Of a stretch of 24,000 nt of DNA, positions 19,407 to 24,000 are shown piece after piece (position 1 is the first letter of the stretch; every line of letters begins with the position of its first letter). Location: positions 8,426-32,425 of the forward strand of contig JANLGW010000053.1 of the NCBI GenBank assembly GCA_024653965.1, given 5' to 3'. The DNA comes from Rhodospirillales bacterium. Lineage in GTDB: Bacteria > Pseudomonadota > Alphaproteobacteria > Rhodospirillales > Magnetovibrionaceae. A model generated the notes under the pieces. That model was not told where the DNA came from. It searched no databases and worked only from the letters and a program-made list of their open reading frames with translations. The translations under genes and the position numbers were made by a program.

Positions 19407-19433
19407 ATCACAAATGCCAAAGCCCGCCGTCAT
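19407..19433 (+). promoter_or_regulatory. Conserved reb promoter-like motif P1 (ATCACAA-N14-CGTCAT)
   Basis: ATCACAA at 19407..19413 and CGTCAT at 19428..19433, 54 nt upstream of the reb1 ATG. The same motif with identical 14-nt spacing precedes five other reb genes. Confidence 0.55.
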
Positions 19434-19486
19434 ATCGATGTGCCTGGGGAGAGGCATCAGCTGAACATTTTTAGGAGACTCCAACT

Positions 19487-19810
19487 ATGGCTATGCCGAC
19501 TCCCGTCAACGGAATGATTACCGACGCCGTGACCCAAACCAACGTCAAGGTGCTGGGCGAAGCCCCCGCCATGGCGATGGGCGCGATTTATCAGTCCTTG
19601 TCCCACTCCACCGGTATCTTGTTTGAAAATGCCGTCGGTTCGCAGCAGCAGCTGGCGATTGCGGCGCAGGCCGCGACCAATCAGGGCGTGATCCAGATTT
19701 ACAGCGTCGACACCATGGCTGGCGCCGTGGCGACGTCGAAGATCGGCCAGTCCGACGTGCCCAACAACATGCTGTCGCTGCTTACGGCGTTGCGCGCGAC
19801 CGCAGCTTAA
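19487..19810 (+). CDS. rebB: RebB-family (R-body / 'killing trait') protein, paralogue 1 (107 aa)
   Basis: MAMPTPVNGMITDAVTQTNVKVLGEAPAMAMGAIYQSLSHSTGILFENAVGSQQQLAIAAQAATNQGVIQIYSV.. matches the RebA/RebB/RebD pattern I recall (NSQITDAVTQ.N.KV....PA.A.G..YQ...H......NA...QQ). AGGAGA lies 8 nt upstream. Confidence 0.85.
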   Translation: MAMPTPVNGMITDAVTQTNVKVLGEAPAMAMGAIYQSLSHSTGILFENAVGSQQQLAIAAQAATNQGVIQIYSVDTMAGAVATSKIGQSDVPNNMLSLLTALRATAA

Positions 19811-19852
19811 GGCCGCATCGTACTCTAAGGCGCAGTACAAACATACGGATCA

Positions 19853-19884
19853 AGCCCCGTCCTTGTGGCGGGGCTTTTTCTTTT
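19853..19884 (+). terminator. Rho-independent terminator after reb1
   Basis: AGCCCCG (19853..19859) pairs with CGGGGCT (19869..19875), followed by TTTTTCTTTT. Confidence 0.75.
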
Positions 19885-19893
19885 GTGCCGCCT

Positions 19894-19920
19894 ATCACAA
19901 CTCGATTGTCGGCTCGTCAT
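19894..19920 (+). promoter_or_regulatory. Conserved reb promoter-like motif P2 (ATCACAA-N14-CGTCAT)
   Basis: ATCACAA at 19894..19900 and CGTCAT at 19915..19920. As in P1, GGGGAGAGGC follows 12 nt later. Confidence 0.55.
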
Positions 19921-19968
19921 TCCTAAGAGCTTGGGGAGAGGCTCAACGCAACATGAAGGAGACAGCTA

Positions 19969-20292
19969 ATGGCCATGCCGACTCCCGTGAACGGAATGAT
20001 CACGGACGCCGTTACTCAGGCAAACGTCAAGGTGCTGGGCGATGCCCCGGCGATGGCGATGGGTGCAATTTATCAATCGCTTTCCCATTCGACGGGTATT
20101 CTTTTTGAAAACGCCGTCGGTTCCCAGCAGCAGCTGGGTATTGCGGCGCAGGCTGCGACCAACCAGGGCGTGATCCAGATTTATTCCGTGCCGCCGATGG
20201 CGGCCGCGGTGGCGACGTCCAAAATCTCGCAGTCCGATGTTCCGGACAACATGCTGGCCTTGTTGACGGCGCTGCGTGCGACCGCCAGCTAA
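19969..20292 (+). CDS. rebB: RebB-family protein, paralogue 2 (107 aa)
   Basis: About 10 aa differences from paralogue 1 by hand alignment. AGGAGA lies 6 nt upstream. Confidence 0.85.
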   Translation: MAMPTPVNGMITDAVTQANVKVLGDAPAMAMGAIYQSLSHSTGILFENAVGSQQQLGIAAQAATNQGVIQIYSVPPMAAAVATSKISQSDVPDNMLALLTALRATAS

Positions 20293-20309
20293 GCTGGTAC
20301 CCAAAGATT

Positions 20310-20354
20310 ACCGGTCCGCGCATCGGCTGCGGGCCGGTTTCTTTTAATTTTTTT
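20310..20354 (+). terminator. Rho-independent terminator after reb2
   Basis: ACCGGTCCGC pairs with GCGGGCCGGT (one G.U pair), followed by TTCTTTTAATTTTTTT. Confidence 0.75.
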
Positions 20355-22539: not shown

Positions 22540-22578
22540 TCATGTTCGAGTTTCGATGCAAGGTCGGGGAGGTTTGTG

Positions 22579-23097
22579 ATGTCCAGTCAAACTAATCAAC
22601 GACTTCTCGATGTCAATGCCATGGTGATGGGCAACGGCGTCGGTCTGGCGGCGTTGGAATCCATGTTTAATTTGGTGCAGACGCAATCGTTGCTGTCGGC
22701 CAGCATGGTCAGAGACCACAATCTCTCCGGCAGCCTAGCGCTTGAAGCGTTGGCGATTGCCATCGGTGAAGTGTTGGATCCTGGTGTGTACAGCGCATGT
22801 CGATCTTGCCGACGCACGAAGCCGATCCCCGTCGATATTCCGCCGGTGAAAGCAAGTGTCGGTGCGGTGAATGAAGGCACTCGGCGCGGCGCAGGGCCGA
22901 GCGGAGAGGCGCTGAACGACATTACGGGAGAGCGCGTCAGTTCTTCCGCCACCGAGGTGCATACCAGCGATTCCGATATTCAGGTGGAGCAACTGCTGGA
23001 AAAAATCTTTGATTTATTGGATGGGCATATGAAGGACATGACCAATCATATGAACATCATGAGCGAAAATTCCCGCAATCGCTTGATGGTGACTTAA
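22579..23097 (+). CDS. Atypical 172-aa protein with a divergent RebB-like N-terminal domain and a unique C-terminal region
   Basis: VMGNGVGLAALESMFNLVQTQSLLSASMV parallels VLGSGPAFAALESMMANTTAQSAVLMNAV of the preceding protein. The ATG at 22579 is 6 nt after GGGGAGG. I do not recognise the C-terminal half (Cys pair CRSC, acidic/His-Met-rich tail). Confidence 0.6.
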   Translation: MSSQTNQRLLDVNAMVMGNGVGLAALESMFNLVQTQSLLSASMVRDHNLSGSLALEALAIAIGEVLDPGVYSACRSCRRTKPIPVDIPPVKASVGAVNEGTRRGAGPSGEALNDITGERVSSSATEVHTSDSDIQVEQLLEKIFDLLDGHMKDMTNHMNIMSENSRNRLMVT

Positions 23098-23139
23098 TAA
23101 GCGCAGTTGCACGGGTTTAGAGTATGAAAGGCTGCTGAT

Positions 23140-23370
23140 ATGGCGAATATCGTTCAACCCCAGATTACCGATGCGGTCACTCAGACGAACGTCAAAGTTC
23201 TGGGCGAAAGCCCGGTTGGCGCGCTCGGTGTGTCGTCGCAGGCGCTGGCACACGCCATGGGGCTGGCAATGGAAAATGCCACCCATACCCAGGGCGGCAT
23301 GCAGCAGATGGGAAATTCCGCGGCGGTCGCCATCATGGCGATGATCACCAAGGCGGGAGCGTCGGCGTAA
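23140..23370 (+). CDS. Short RebB-family protein (76 aa; RebD-like in length only)
   Basis: MANIVQPQITDAVTQTNVKVLGESPVGALGVSSQALAHAMGLAMENATHTQGGMQQMGNS.. keeps the N-terminal Reb core and lacks the C-terminal ..IYSV..SDVP.. part. Confidence 0.8.
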   Translation: MANIVQPQITDAVTQTNVKVLGESPVGALGVSSQALAHAMGLAMENATHTQGGMQQMGNSAAVAIMAMITKAGASA

Positions 23371-23389
23371 TGCAGGTTTAGCGCCCCTT

Positions 23390-23416
23390 GTCACATCGGC
23401 GAGCGCGGCGCGTCAG
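23390..23416 (+). promoter_or_regulatory. Conserved reb promoter-like motif P6 (GTCACAT-N14-CGTCAG)
   Basis: GTCACAT at 23390..23396 and CGTCAG at 23411..23416, with the same spacing, 65 nt upstream of the ATG at 23481. Confidence 0.45.
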
Positions 23417-23480
23417 ATTTTAAGGAACGAAGTTCCGGTTGCGATGTCGCGCCGGAGGGGAGGCAAAGAAAGGATACTTG

Positions 23481-23804
23481 ATGGCGATCCCAACACCCGT
23501 CAACGGCATGATTACGGATGCGGTCACGCAAAGCAGCGTGGCGGTGCTCGGCTCGGCTCCTGCCCAGGCGATGGGCAATGTTTACCAAGCGGCGGCGCAT
23601 TCGTTGAGCGTGCTGTTCCAAAATTCGGTACAGGCTCAACAACACGCCGCCATCAGTGCCCAAGCCGCCACCAATCAGGGTGTGATGCAGCTTTATTCGG
23701 TGCCGCCGATGGCATCGGCGATGTCGACGGCCAAGATCGCGCAAAGCAATGAACCGGACTTTATGATGGCGCTGTTGATGGCGCTGGCGGCGAGTAAAAA
23801 ATAG
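23481..23804 (+). CDS. rebB: RebB-family protein, divergent paralogue (107 aa)
   Basis: MAIPTPVNGMITDAVTQSSVAVLGSAPAQAMGNVYQAAAHSLSVLFQNSVQAQQHAAISAQAATNQGVMQLYSVPPMA.. (the track ORF starts at 23439). Confidence 0.85.
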   Translation: MAIPTPVNGMITDAVTQSSVAVLGSAPAQAMGNVYQAAAHSLSVLFQNSVQAQQHAAISAQAATNQGVMQLYSVPPMASAMSTAKIAQSNEPDFMMALLMALAASKK

Positions 23805-23871
23805 GGAACTTTAATCCGGCGGCCCGGTTGGGAACCGTCGGCGGTGCAACATTTGAATCAAAGGTCAAACA

Positions 23872-24000
23872 ATGGTCGACCAAACTAGTGTCAACGCTCA
23901 GATCACCGACGCCGTTACGCAAACGAACGTCAAGGTGGTTGCCGAGGCCCCGGCCCAAAGCATGGCCATGGTATATCAGACGATGGCGCACTCCATCTCG
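23872..24000 (+). CDS. rebB: RebB-family protein, 5' part only (runs off the window)
   Basis: The ATG at 23872 gives MVDQTSVNAQITDAVTQTNVKVVAEAPAQSMAMVYQTMAHSIS.. It is absent from the ORF track because it is open at the window edge. Confidence 0.8.
   Translation, partial: MVDQTSVNAQITDAVTQTNVKVVAEAPAQSMAMVYQTMAHSIS

What the first reader, a model, noticed from the sequence alone, without database searches (positions are those of the whole stretch)
19407..24000. Expanded R-body (RebB / 'killing trait') locus: at least nine Reb-domain genes in 4.6 kb, continuing past the window
Seen directly: seven small ORFs (76-110 aa) share the core ..N.QITDAVTQ.NVKVLG.(A/S)PA.AMG..YQ...HS......NA...QQ......AQAATNQGV.Q.YSV... 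Two larger ORFs carry divergent versions of the same domain. From memory this is the signature of RebA/RebB/RebD of Caedibacter taeniospiralis. Those proteins polymerise into R bodies, coiled ribbons that extend irreversibly at low pH and rupture membranes. Functional work exists for only a few systems (Caedibacter, Azorhizobium caulinodans, Pseudomonas aeruginosa PA14). As I recall, those loci have about 2-4 Reb paralogues. This array is larger, has three sequence classes (long canonical, short 76-aa, large multidomain), and sits on a chromosome beside ordinary metabolic genes rather than on a phage or plasmid. No regulator or RebC-like gene is visible in the window, so part of the system probably lies downstream.
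Basis: partly seen in the sequence, partly recalled or inferred. Interest (0 to 1): 0.85.

Follow-up and report, generated by a model that had tools for sequence, protein, structure and literature searches.

The report
Ordinary multi-copy R-body (reb) gene cluster
This is a real cluster of about ten genes for the small proteins that build R-bodies (coiled, membrane-piercing protein ribbons), but clusters of this size, linked to the same type of sigma-factor regulator, are the norm in related marine and soil bacteria, so it is a well-preserved ordinary example, not an unusual expansion.

Summary
Window 19.4-24.0 kb carries nine same-strand genes. Eight pass Pfam RebB (PF11747) above its curated cut-off. 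The ninth, X6 (173 aa), links to Reb only by profile-profile comparison.

Near-identical metagenome contigs show that the locus continues about 1.5 kb past the window. It runs through the rest of R9, a tenth divergent Reb gene, and a convergent ECF sigma-factor gene.

The source is a Rhodospirillales MAG whose closest Reb relatives are Magnetovibrio. The flanking genes (thiC, guaB, rsmB, rlmE) are chromosomal.

The "expanded" reading fails. In 74 genomes holding the closest Reb homologues, clusters carry 5-14 Reb genes (median 7), and 70 of 74 also hold the ECF sigma homologue. Published surveys already describe multi-copy clusters, "secondary" Reb classes with extensions, and the ECF link (ECF237; FecI2 in PA14).

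One thing I did not find in the papers read: a motif, TCACAA-N14-CGTCA, sits 50-80 nt upstream of R1-R4, with a one-mismatch copy before R8. It recurs in reb clusters of other genera and upstream of the sigma gene. This suggests an autoregulated ECF regulon with one promoter per major-subunit gene.

Verdict: new member of a known kind, modest interest.

The parts
19408..19432 (+). Promoter-like motif TCACAA-N14-CGTCA, 55 nt upstream of R1
   Evidence: Exact match. The window holds 4 exact copies and 2 one-mismatch copies (one at 23391 before R8; the other at 10120 on the - strand, unrelated), against 0.35 expected by chance. The motif is conserved in other genera.
19487..19810 (+). R1, long canonical Reb (107 aa, 'M-type' MAMPTPVNGMITD)
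   Evidence: Pfam RebB 100.5 bits. It is 91% aa and 81% nt identical to R2.
19852..19876 (+). Intrinsic-terminator-like hairpin with T-run after R1
   Evidence: 10 pairs, 7 of them GC, followed by TTTTCTTTT.
19895..19919 (+). Promoter-like motif, 50 nt upstream of R2
   Evidence: Exact match.
19969..20292 (+). R2, long canonical Reb (107 aa, M-type). This is the lineage-specific extra copy.
   Evidence: Pfam 96.8 bits. In the paralogue tree R1 and R2 both fall in the M-type group, which has a single copy in the Magnetovibrio loci.
20310..20338 (+). Intrinsic-terminator-like hairpin after R2
   Evidence: 11 pairs, 8 of them GC, followed by a T-run.
20366..20390 (+). Promoter-like motif, 79 nt upstream of R3
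   Evidence: Exact match.
20469..20801 (+). R3, long canonical Reb (110 aa, 'Q-type' MALPTPVNGQITD)
   Evidence: Pfam 99.7 bits. Its positional orthologues in L004, L006, L007, L079 and L080 group with it.
20810..21014 (+). Three stem-loops in the long R3-R4 spacer (20810-20849, 20887-20924, 20992-21014), the last terminator-like
   Evidence: The 17-nt palindrome is unique in the window.
21057..21081 (+). Promoter-like motif, 77 nt upstream of R4
   Evidence: Exact match.
21158..21490 (+). R4, long canonical Reb (110 aa, Q-type)
   Evidence: Pfam 101.9 bits. It is 90-96% identical to Magnetovibrio orthologues.
21626..21650 (+). Possible degenerate promoter motif (TCACGA-N14-CGTCT) upstream of R5. 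Uncertain.
   Evidence: It has 2 mismatches and is not significant on its own; about 5.5 such matches are expected in the window. Only its position argues for it.
21763..22539 (+). R5, a 258-aa protein (the ORF opens at TTG 21730; ATG 21763 has a GGAG ribosome-binding site). It has a Lys/Ala/Pro-rich N-terminus, a (PQAQ)n linker, and a C-terminal divergent Reb domain.
   Evidence: Pfam RebB 33.7 bits at residues 201-263. A perfect 12-nt tandem repeat (x4.7) lies at 22138-22193. RBS read. R5-like ORFs occur in 53 related loci. It resembles group S4 of PMC13430693.
22576..23097 (+). X6, a 173-aa clade-restricted protein. It has an N-terminal ~65-aa very divergent Reb-type domain, a CxxC-containing variable linker, and a conserved C-terminal helix ending in -VT.
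   Evidence: No Pfam hit. hhalign to the divergent Reb subfamily gives 96% probability and E 1.5e-9. Only 26 representative clusters match among 1.84 billion proteins, none of them a canonical Reb. The gene is 36 nt after R5.
23140..23370 (+). R7, short Reb (76 aa), 42 nt after X6
   Evidence: Pfam 60.8 bits. It is the same length as the 76-aa Reb of Labrenzia alexandrii (PMC3764935).
23391..23415 (+). Promoter-like motif (TCACAT-N14-CGTCA), 66 nt upstream of R8
   Evidence: 1 mismatch. The same site is conserved in L001 and L002, and equivalent sites precede the R8 orthologues in L004-L007.
23481..23804 (+). R8, long Reb of a second subtype (107 aa), 62-66% identical to R1-R4
   Evidence: Pfam 88.1 bits; identities.
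23863..24000 (+). R9, short Reb, cut by the window end (84 aa in close relatives)
   Evidence: The fragment scores 56.3 bits. The full-length 84-aa protein in L001/L002 scores 84.7 bits.

Best explanation
This is a chromosomal R-body (reb) gene cluster of the ECF-sigma-linked type, in a Magnetovibrio-related Rhodospirillales bacterium.

Composition. The complete module is about 6 kb and, by inference from near-identical contigs, has three parts:
- Four major-subunit genes (R1-R4).
- A run of R5-X6-R7 with spacers of only 36-42 nt, so probably co-transcribed.
- R8-R9-R10.
A convergent ECF sigma-factor gene lies just beyond the window.

Proposed working (inferred):
1. When the ECF sigma becomes active, it transcribes its own gene and the reb genes from TCACAA-N14-CGTCA promoters.
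2. R1-R4 each have their own promoter, and R1-R3 their own terminator-like hairpin. This gives high output of the abundant ribbon subunits.
3. The long Reb proteins (R1-R4, R8) polymerise into the coiled ribbon.
4. The short Rebs (R7, R9) and the divergent or extended Rebs (R5, X6, R10) act as minor components needed for nucleation, capping or ribbon geometry.
5. As in the studied systems, only a few cells would fill with an R-body. After ingestion by a eukaryotic grazer or host, acidification would make the ribbon unroll and break membranes.

Shown here: family membership, gene order, paralogue classes, motif positions and their conservation, and the sigma linkage in relatives.

Inferred: that the motif is the sigma's promoter, that ribbons form, the subunit roles, and the ecological function.
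For: Family membership:
- Eight of nine ORFs exceed the Pfam RebB cut-off. X6 joins through profile-profile comparison.
- R1-R4 are 37-41% identical to Caedibacter RebA/RebB, and R4 matches the pKAP298 RebB family gene directly.
- The signature motifs listed in PMC13430693 can be read in R1-R4: prolines flanking (Q/M)ITD, KxxxE/D, a conserved Tyr, NAV and QQQ.

Downstream continuation:
- L002 (98.6% identical to the window) and L001 (93%) show R9 at 84 aa. A 145-aa divergent Reb follows (RebB 19.7 bits, below the cut-off), then an ECF sigma on the opposite strand with Sigma70_r4_2 and Sigma70_ECF hits.
- The same order is seen in L079 and L080. Homologues of R5, X6, R10 and the sigma also occur in L004-L007.

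Sigma link:
- A sigma homologue is present in 70 of 74 related loci.

Motif:
- 4 exact plus 1 one-mismatch copies lie upstream of R1-R4 and R8, against 0.35 matches expected.
- A loose form is 12-fold enriched on the sense strand inside reb clusters of the 74 loci.
- The T before CACAA was not required by the search, yet it is present in all 159 sites found upstream of 452 Reb genes.
- Copies lie directly upstream of the sigma gene in L005, L006 and L029.

Selection:
- R1-R4 are 75-81% identical in DNA but 85-95% in protein. They group by position across genomes. So they are old, maintained paralogues, not a recent amplification.

Literature:
- FecI2 is required for the rebP1 promoter in PA14 (PMC8322103).
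- An ECF sigma flanks the reb cluster of the R-body-producing Labrenzia alexandrii (PMC3764935).
- ECF237 sigma factors neighbour several RebB copies (PMC7826278).
- In Azorhizobium caulinodans, distinct Reb classes are each essential while two similar ones are redundant (PMC5527310).
Against: - No R-body has been seen in this organism or, as far as I found, in any Magnetovibrio.
- The sigma gene and R10 are inferred from contigs 93-98.6% identical to the window, not from the source contig, which I could not retrieve.
- The motif is not shown to be bound by the sigma, and TCACAA is not the commonest ECF -35 form.
- No clear motif precedes R5.
- Casas-Pastor et al. (PMC7826278) suggested that multi-copy RebB next to ECF237 may have a function unrelated to R-bodies.
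- No solved Reb structure exists to check subunit roles.
Confidence: 0.8

Rival explanations
1. One reading: the array is an exceptional expansion with a new architecture. It has more paralogues and new classes than any known reb locus, which would imply new R-body properties.
For: It has more Reb genes than the three experimentally dissected loci: Caedibacter has 3 plus RebC, A. caulinodans 4, PA14 3. X6 is a small clade-restricted family with 26 representative clusters. The window has one more M-type copy than the Magnetovibrio loci.
Against: The same HMM finds 5-14 Reb ORFs per cluster in 74 related genomes, median 7, with the window at 8. Methylobacter tundripaludum has 14, and Kordiimonas marina (L010) and a further MAG (L009) have 11. 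Nine and six copies were reported in 2013. Extended 'secondary' Reb groups were described in 2026. The gene order is shared with L079 and L080, and the L004-L007 loci hold the same set of homologues.
Confidence: 0.07
2. The Reb-domain proteins here do not build R-bodies. They serve another role tied to the ECF sigma, such as regulators or partner proteins of the sigma, or a different kind of polymer.
For: Casas-Pastor et al. raised this possibility for ECF237 neighbourhoods. RebC is absent. No ultrastructure is available for this clade.
Against: R-bodies have been observed in bacteria with ECF-linked or multi-copy clusters lacking RebC: L. alexandrii, PA14, and R. centenum and M. mediterranea. 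The sequence motifs considered diagnostic are intact in R1-R4. Five to fourteen highly conserved structural-type paralogues, several with their own promoter-like motifs, fit bulk structural subunits better than regulators.
Confidence: 0.1
3. The cluster is a silent, horizontally acquired island that is decaying.
For: G+C is slightly lower in the cluster (0.55-0.59) than in the flank (0.60-0.63). The genomic context differs from every relative examined. A tRNA-Gln and a low-GC ORF lie 5 kb upstream.
Against: All ORFs are intact. The paralogues show strong protein conservation despite 19-25% DNA divergence. The promoter-like motifs and terminators are preserved.
Confidence: 0.03

Closest known systems
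Uncharacterised reb clusters of Magnetovibrio (M. blakemorei MV-1 contig NZ_MCGG01000055, Magnetovibrio MAGs; loci L004-L007) and metagenome contigs L079/L080
   Same: They hold the same set of genes: canonical Rebs, R5-like, X6-like, R10-like and an ECF sigma on the opposite strand. L079 and L080 show the identical order. R4 is 90-96% identical in protein. They carry the same TCACAA-N14-CGTCA motifs.
   Different: DNA identity is only about 75-84%. They have 3 canonical copies (L079 has 5) against 4 here. The flanking genes are different, so the module sits at another chromosomal site.
Labrenzia (Roseibium) alexandrii DFL-11 reb cluster (PMC3764935)
   Same: It is a marine alphaproteobacterium with a chromosomal cluster of Reb proteins of about 110-120 aa and 76 aa, hypothetical genes in between, and a flanking ECF sigma factor. 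R-bodies were seen there by TEM.
   Different: Only three Pfam-detectable Reb genes were reported there. I made no direct sequence comparison.
Pseudomonas aeruginosa PA14 reb cluster (rebP1, rebP2, rebD, rapA, rcgA, fecI2; PMC8322103)
   Same: Reb genes are clustered with an ECF-type sigma factor that is required for reb promoter activity. Expression is stochastic, and the cluster has a role against eukaryotic hosts.
   Different: It has three Reb genes and an additional transcription factor, RcgA, that is also required. No RcgA-like gene was seen in the relatives' flanks; a conserved 245-aa protein without Pfam hits lies beside the sigma instead. The sigma here has a conserved N-terminal extension of roughly 100-130 aa.
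Caedibacter taeniospiralis rebA/B/C/D on plasmid pKAP (type system)
   Same: Same protein family. R1-R4 are 37-41% identical to RebA/RebB and 42-47% to RebD over 59 aa. Both have long and short Reb classes.
   Different: The Caedibacter genes are plasmid-borne and include RebC (no homologue known elsewhere), with no ECF sigma reported. Here the cluster is chromosomal, has about ten paralogues, and is sigma-linked.
Azorhizobium caulinodans reb operon AZC_3781-3788 (PMC5527310)
   Same: It is an alphaproteobacterial chromosomal cluster that mixes Reb and non-Reb genes. Its genetics show that similar Rebs are redundant while different classes are each essential.
   Different: It is a single operon controlled by a Crp/Fnr activator (RebR) and the repressor PraR, not by an ECF sigma, and it has four Reb genes.

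Membership tests
Pfam PF11747 RebB ('killing trait') protein family | Score at or above the curated gathering cut-off (24 bits) | tested here: met
   R1-R4, R5, R7, R8 and the R9 fragment score 33.7-101.9 bits. Full-length R9 from L001 scores 84.7 bits.
Pfam PF11747 RebB, for X6 (22576-23097) | Score at or above the cut-off, or another significant link to the family | tested here: inconclusive
   No Pfam hit. The direct profile comparison with canonical Reb gives E 0.24. A library-wide profile search finds no canonical Reb. Against the divergent Reb subfamily, hhalign gives 96% probability and E 1.5e-9. The AF2 model is too poor to test the fold (pLDDT 56).
Pfam PF11747 RebB, for R10 (off-window, from L001/L002) | Score at or above the cut-off | tested here: not met
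   19.7 bits, E 9e-4, below the 24-bit cut-off. It is still detected by my clade HMM at E below 1e-3, and homologues occur in 69 of 74 loci.
Primary Reb proteins as defined by Dorr et al. 2026 (PMC13430693) | Prolines flanking a (D)QITD motif, a KxxxD/E motif, a conserved Tyr, NAV and QQQ motifs, few Cys or aromatic residues | tested here: met
   Read directly in R1-R4: PTPVNG(M/Q)ITD...KVLG(E/D)AP...(A/G)(I/L)YQS...ENA(V/T)(G/S)SQQQ. R3 has NAT in place of NAV. R8 has QNSVQAQQH. R7 and R9 keep only the first half.
R-body system (functional definition) | Several clustered Reb paralogues of more than one class | tested here: met
   Nine in the window, in long, short and extended/divergent classes.
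R-body system (functional definition) | Formation of SDS-insoluble coiled ribbons that extend at low pH | not testable with these tools
   Needs expression and electron microscopy.
Caedibacter-type reb locus | Presence of RebC (56 aa), needed for polymerisation in Caedibacter | not tested
   I could not obtain a RebC sequence; the pKAP298 stretch I fetched ends at the record start. PMC13430693 reports that ctRebC has no homologues in other taxa.
ECF-sigma-linked reb clusters (Raymann 'Group 2' synteny; ECF237 neighbourhood) | An ECF sigma-factor gene adjacent to the Reb genes | tested here: inconclusive
   None lies inside the window. One is present directly after R10 in L001 (93% identical to the window) and in 70 of 74 related loci. 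The source contig beyond 24000 could not be fetched. Assignment of this sigma to group ECF237 itself could not be tested because no model was available.

The most novel reading that the evidence does not exclude
The Magnetovibrio-like clade may have a distinct R-body subtype, defined by three features. The first is a clade-restricted Reb-derived protein with a CxxC motif (X6; 26 representative clusters worldwide). The second is a Reb protein with a histone-tail-like Lys/Ala/Pro N-terminus and a hypervariable (PQAQ)n linker (R5). The third is an ECF sigma with a conserved N-terminal extension that drives one promoter per major-subunit gene. If X6 and R5 tether cargo or nucleic acid to the ribbon, or set its geometry, the system would differ functionally from the studied R-bodies.
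Probability: 0.1. Interest if true: 0.5.

Novelty: new member of a known kind. Interest (0 to 1): 0.25.

Why it matters
R-bodies are among the largest bacterial protein machines, have been proposed as pH-driven pistons for biotechnology, and still lack a solved structure. This locus adds no new principle.

It is, however, a compact and intact example of the commonest cluster type in nature, the ECF-linked multi-paralogue type. That type is much less studied than the three model loci.

Two results give concrete handles for working out subunit stoichiometry and regulation in this class. One is the conserved TCACAA-N14-CGTCA element in front of individual reb genes and of the sigma gene. The other is the finding that paralogue positions are ancient and maintained. 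Neither result is specific to this window.

Tried and rejected
- A genome-contig scan with X6 found nothing.
- Looking up R1 and the 100%-identical NCBI protein P0001 in the contig index failed, so the source contig beyond 24000 could not be read.
- NCBIfam has no model that hits any of the nine proteins.
- The PDB has no Reb relative by sequence.
- The phage collection has no Reb match, so nothing supports a prophage origin. Plasmid hits are mostly on large (0.5-1.8 Mb) replicons plus Caedibacter pKAP298.
- Direct BLASTP of X6 against R5 was only marginal (E 0.002). hhalign of X6 against canonical Reb was not significant.
- The AF2 model of X6 had pLDDT 56, so I ran no fold search.
- A search for conserved partner genes other than Reb and the sigma across the 74 loci found only genus-specific neighbours.
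- No upstream synteny with Magnetovibrio was found.
- I looked for the published FecI2 or ECF237 promoter motif to compare with TCACAA-N14-CGTCA. It was not in the accessible text or supplements.
- The 2-mismatch motif upstream of R5 is not significant on its own.
- RebC of Caedibacter could not be retrieved for comparison.

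
Full report
**What is there**

The + strand of window 19.4-24.0 kb carries nine closely spaced ORFs:
- R1, 19487-19810, 107 aa
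- R2, 19969-20292, 107 aa
- R3, 20469-20801, 110 aa
- R4, 21158-21490, 110 aa
- R5, 21730-22539, 269 aa as an ORF. The likely start is ATG 21763, which has a GGAG ribosome-binding site, giving 258 aa.
- X6, 22576-23097, 173 aa
- R7, 23140-23370, 76 aa
- R8, 23481-23804, 107 aa
- R9, from 23863, cut by the window end

Eight of the nine pass the Pfam RebB (PF11747) gathering score of 24 bits, with scores of 33.7-101.9 bits. NCBIfam has no matching model. R4 matches the RebB family gene of Caedibacter taeniospiralis plasmid pKAP298 directly, at 39% identity. R1-R4 are 37-41% identical to RebA/RebB of that plasmid and 42-47% to RebD.

**The ninth gene, X6**

X6 gives no Pfam hit. Its family gives no significant direct profile match to canonical Reb. 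A profile search of 1.84 billion representative proteins finds only 26 clusters, all of the X6 type and none canonical Reb.

The N-terminal ~62 columns of the X6 family do align to the divergent 'GSGPA-type' Reb subfamily that includes R5. The match has 96% probability and E 1.5e-9, and the template alignment contained no X6 sequences. That subfamily matches canonical Reb at 99.5% probability and E 4e-23.

So X6 is best described as a very divergent, clade-restricted Reb derivative. This rests on transitive evidence only. An AlphaFold2 model was helical but too uncertain (pLDDT 56) for a fold search.

**Paralogue classes**

- R1-R4 are 85-95% identical in protein but only 75-81% in DNA.
- R8 is 62-66% identical to R1-R4.
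- R7 and R9 are a short class, 51% identical to each other.
- R5, X6 and R10 are divergent.

In a tree with the orthologues from related loci, the canonical copies group by position and not by genome. There are three old subtypes. The window has one extra copy of the 'M-type' (R1/R2), and contig L079 has two extra. The array is therefore an old, maintained arrangement with a single lineage-specific duplication. It is not a recent amplification.

R5 has a Lys/Ala/Pro-rich N-terminus and a (PQAQ)n linker encoded by a perfect 12-nt tandem repeat at 22138-22193.

**Beyond the window**

The source appears to be an NCBI MAG labelled Rhodospirillales bacterium. Its protein NUV50_06150 is 100% identical to X6 and sits on a 32.4-kb contig. 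I could not retrieve that contig.

Two short Logan contigs stand in for it. L002 is 98.6% identical to the window and L001 is 93% identical. They show:
- R9 is 84 aa.
- A 145-aa protein with a weak Reb domain follows (R10; 19.7 bits, below the cut-off).
- In L001, a convergent ECF sigma-factor gene comes next.

The same set of R5-, X6- and R10-like genes and the sigma occurs in Magnetovibrio blakemorei MV-1 and three Magnetovibrio MAGs (L004-L007). Two metagenome contigs, L079 and L080, show the identical gene order. Their flanking genes differ from the window's and from each other, so the reb-plus-sigma module has moved between chromosomal sites.

The window's own flank holds thiC with a TPP riboswitch, rsmB, guaB, rlmE, ppx, a glutamine-synthetase-like gene and a class-III aminotransferase. 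No Reb match exists in the phage collection.

**Is it expanded?**

No. I built an HMM from the window's Reb proteins. I ran it on six-frame ORFs of the 74 genome loci that hold the closest homologues of R4. These come from Magnetovibrio, Thalassospira, Kordiimonas, Nisaea, Brevundimonas, Caulobacter, Rhizomicrobium, Methylobacter and others.

Clusters contain 5-14 Reb ORFs, with a median of 7. The window scores 8. Methylobacter tundripaludum has 14, and Kordiimonas marina (L010) and a further MAG (L009) have 11.

The literature agrees:
- Raymann et al. 2013 report nine copies in Marinomonas mediterranea and six in Rhodospirillum centenum, both known R-body producers. They also describe a synteny group that includes a sigma factor.
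- Dorr et al. 2026 count 471 taxa with at least three reb genes in one cluster. They describe 'secondary' Reb groups, including one (S4) with a proline- and charge-rich N-terminal extension like that of R5.

The '2-4 paralogues' figure applies only to the three dissected systems.

**Regulation**

A homologue of the sigma factor is present in 70 of the 74 loci. This link is known:
- ECF237 sigma factors neighbour several RebB copies.
- FecI2 is needed for the rebP1 promoter in PA14.
- An ECF sigma flanks the reb cluster of the R-body producer Labrenzia alexandrii.

In the window I found the motif TCACAA-N14-CGTCA exactly four times, 50-80 nt upstream of R1, R2, R3 and R4. A one-mismatch copy lies 66 nt upstream of R8. 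Including one further one-mismatch match elsewhere (10120, - strand), that is six matches against 0.35 expected by chance.

Evidence that the motif is a real conserved element:
- A looser form is 12-fold enriched on the sense strand within the reb clusters of the 74 loci.
- In the 159 sites found upstream of 452 Reb genes, the T preceding CACAA is invariant, although the search did not require it.
- Copies lie directly upstream of the sigma gene in L005, L006 and L029. This is the pattern expected of an autoregulated ECF sigma.

Terminator-like hairpins follow R1, R2 and R3. R5-X6-R7 are separated by only 36 and 42 nt. R8-R9 are 58 nt apart, and in L001 R9-R10 are 65 nt apart.

I infer five or six transcription units: one per major-subunit gene, plus R5-X6-R7 (promoter unclear; a 2-mismatch site at 21626 is not significant) and R8-R9-R10. 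I did not find this motif described in the papers I could read. It may be listed in resources I could not access.

**How it most likely works**

By homology with the studied systems, the long Rebs polymerise into a coiled ribbon that unrolls at low pH and ruptures membranes of a eukaryotic grazer or host. A. caulinodans genetics show that similar Rebs are redundant whereas distinct classes are each essential. This fits near-identical R1-R4 as dosage copies and the single-copy divergent genes as specialised minor components. None of this is demonstrated for this organism.

The main rival is that ECF237-linked RebB arrays do something other than build R-bodies. It is weakened by the observation of R-bodies in several bacteria with multi-copy or ECF-linked clusters lacking RebC.

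**Verdict**

The R-body interpretation, the continuation past the window and the downstream regulator are supported. The claim of an unusual expansion or new architecture is not. This is a new member of a known and recently surveyed kind. The modest points of interest are the clade-restricted X6 family, the per-gene promoter motif shared with the sigma gene, and the N-terminal extension of the sigma.

Noticed in passing
L004-L007, L079, L080 (e.g. L079:13286-14296, - strand); the sigma gene lies just beyond the window end: The reb-linked ECF sigma factor of this clade carries a conserved N-terminal extension of roughly 100-130 aa (MGVFKFP...EVPGPGT..SRSRKRLSPAAVIARSLAPDA..LSP.DIIARS...) followed by a Pro-rich linker before regions 2 and 4. 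Part of it is recognisable in Thalassospira. It may be a built-in regulatory domain.
   Followed up: partly
L079:14588-15322 (-), L006:9079-9867 (-), L007:14413-15087 (-), L004:12993-13805 (-): A conserved ~245-aa low-complexity protein with no Pfam hit lies next to the sigma gene on the same strand in six clade loci (L004-L007, L079, L080). It could be a sigma partner or an R-body-associated protein.
   Followed up: partly
L004:5253 (+) upstream of ORF 5371-6228; L029:5912 and 8603 (+): Extra copies of the TCACAA-N14-CGTC motif lie outside the Reb genes. One precedes a 286-aa ORF just upstream of the Magnetovibrio clusters (its C-terminus looks OmpA-like by eye; not tested; homologues in L005 and L006). 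These ORFs may be further members of the sigma's regulon.
   Followed up: partly
window 14003-14076 (+) and 14100-15500: A tRNA-Gln(CTG) is followed by a low-GC patch (0.45-0.50 against about 0.60). The patch holds a 371-aa ORF (14382-15497) with no Pfam hit and a match to a phage protein family of unknown function (phrog_19542, E 2.5e-16). It is possibly a small integrated remnant.
   Followed up: partly
window 5433-5538 (-): A TPP riboswitch lies upstream of thiC (3552-5378, -). This is ordinary.
   Followed up: yes
window 5500-7000: A second lower-GC stretch (0.51-0.52) holds two small ORFs (5505-5921 and 6085-6498, - strand) without Pfam or PHROG hits.
   Followed up: partly
window 10205-10987 and 11042-11791 (+): Two tandem paralogous genes encode FKBP-type prolyl isomerase fused to a rhodanese domain. 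They sit next to a 'host attachment'/baeRF family-12 gene at 9672-10118.
   Followed up: no
window 20810-20924: The unusually long R3-R4 spacer (356 bp) holds two perfect palindromic stem-loops (14-nt and 17-nt arms) ahead of the terminator-like hairpin. The 17-nt palindrome occurs nowhere else in the window. Its function is unknown.
   Followed up: partly
window 22138-22193 (inside R5): A perfect 12-nt tandem repeat (CCTCAGGCACAA x4.7) encodes (PQAQ)n. This stretch differs in the close relative L001, which suggests a length-variable linker.
   Followed up: partly
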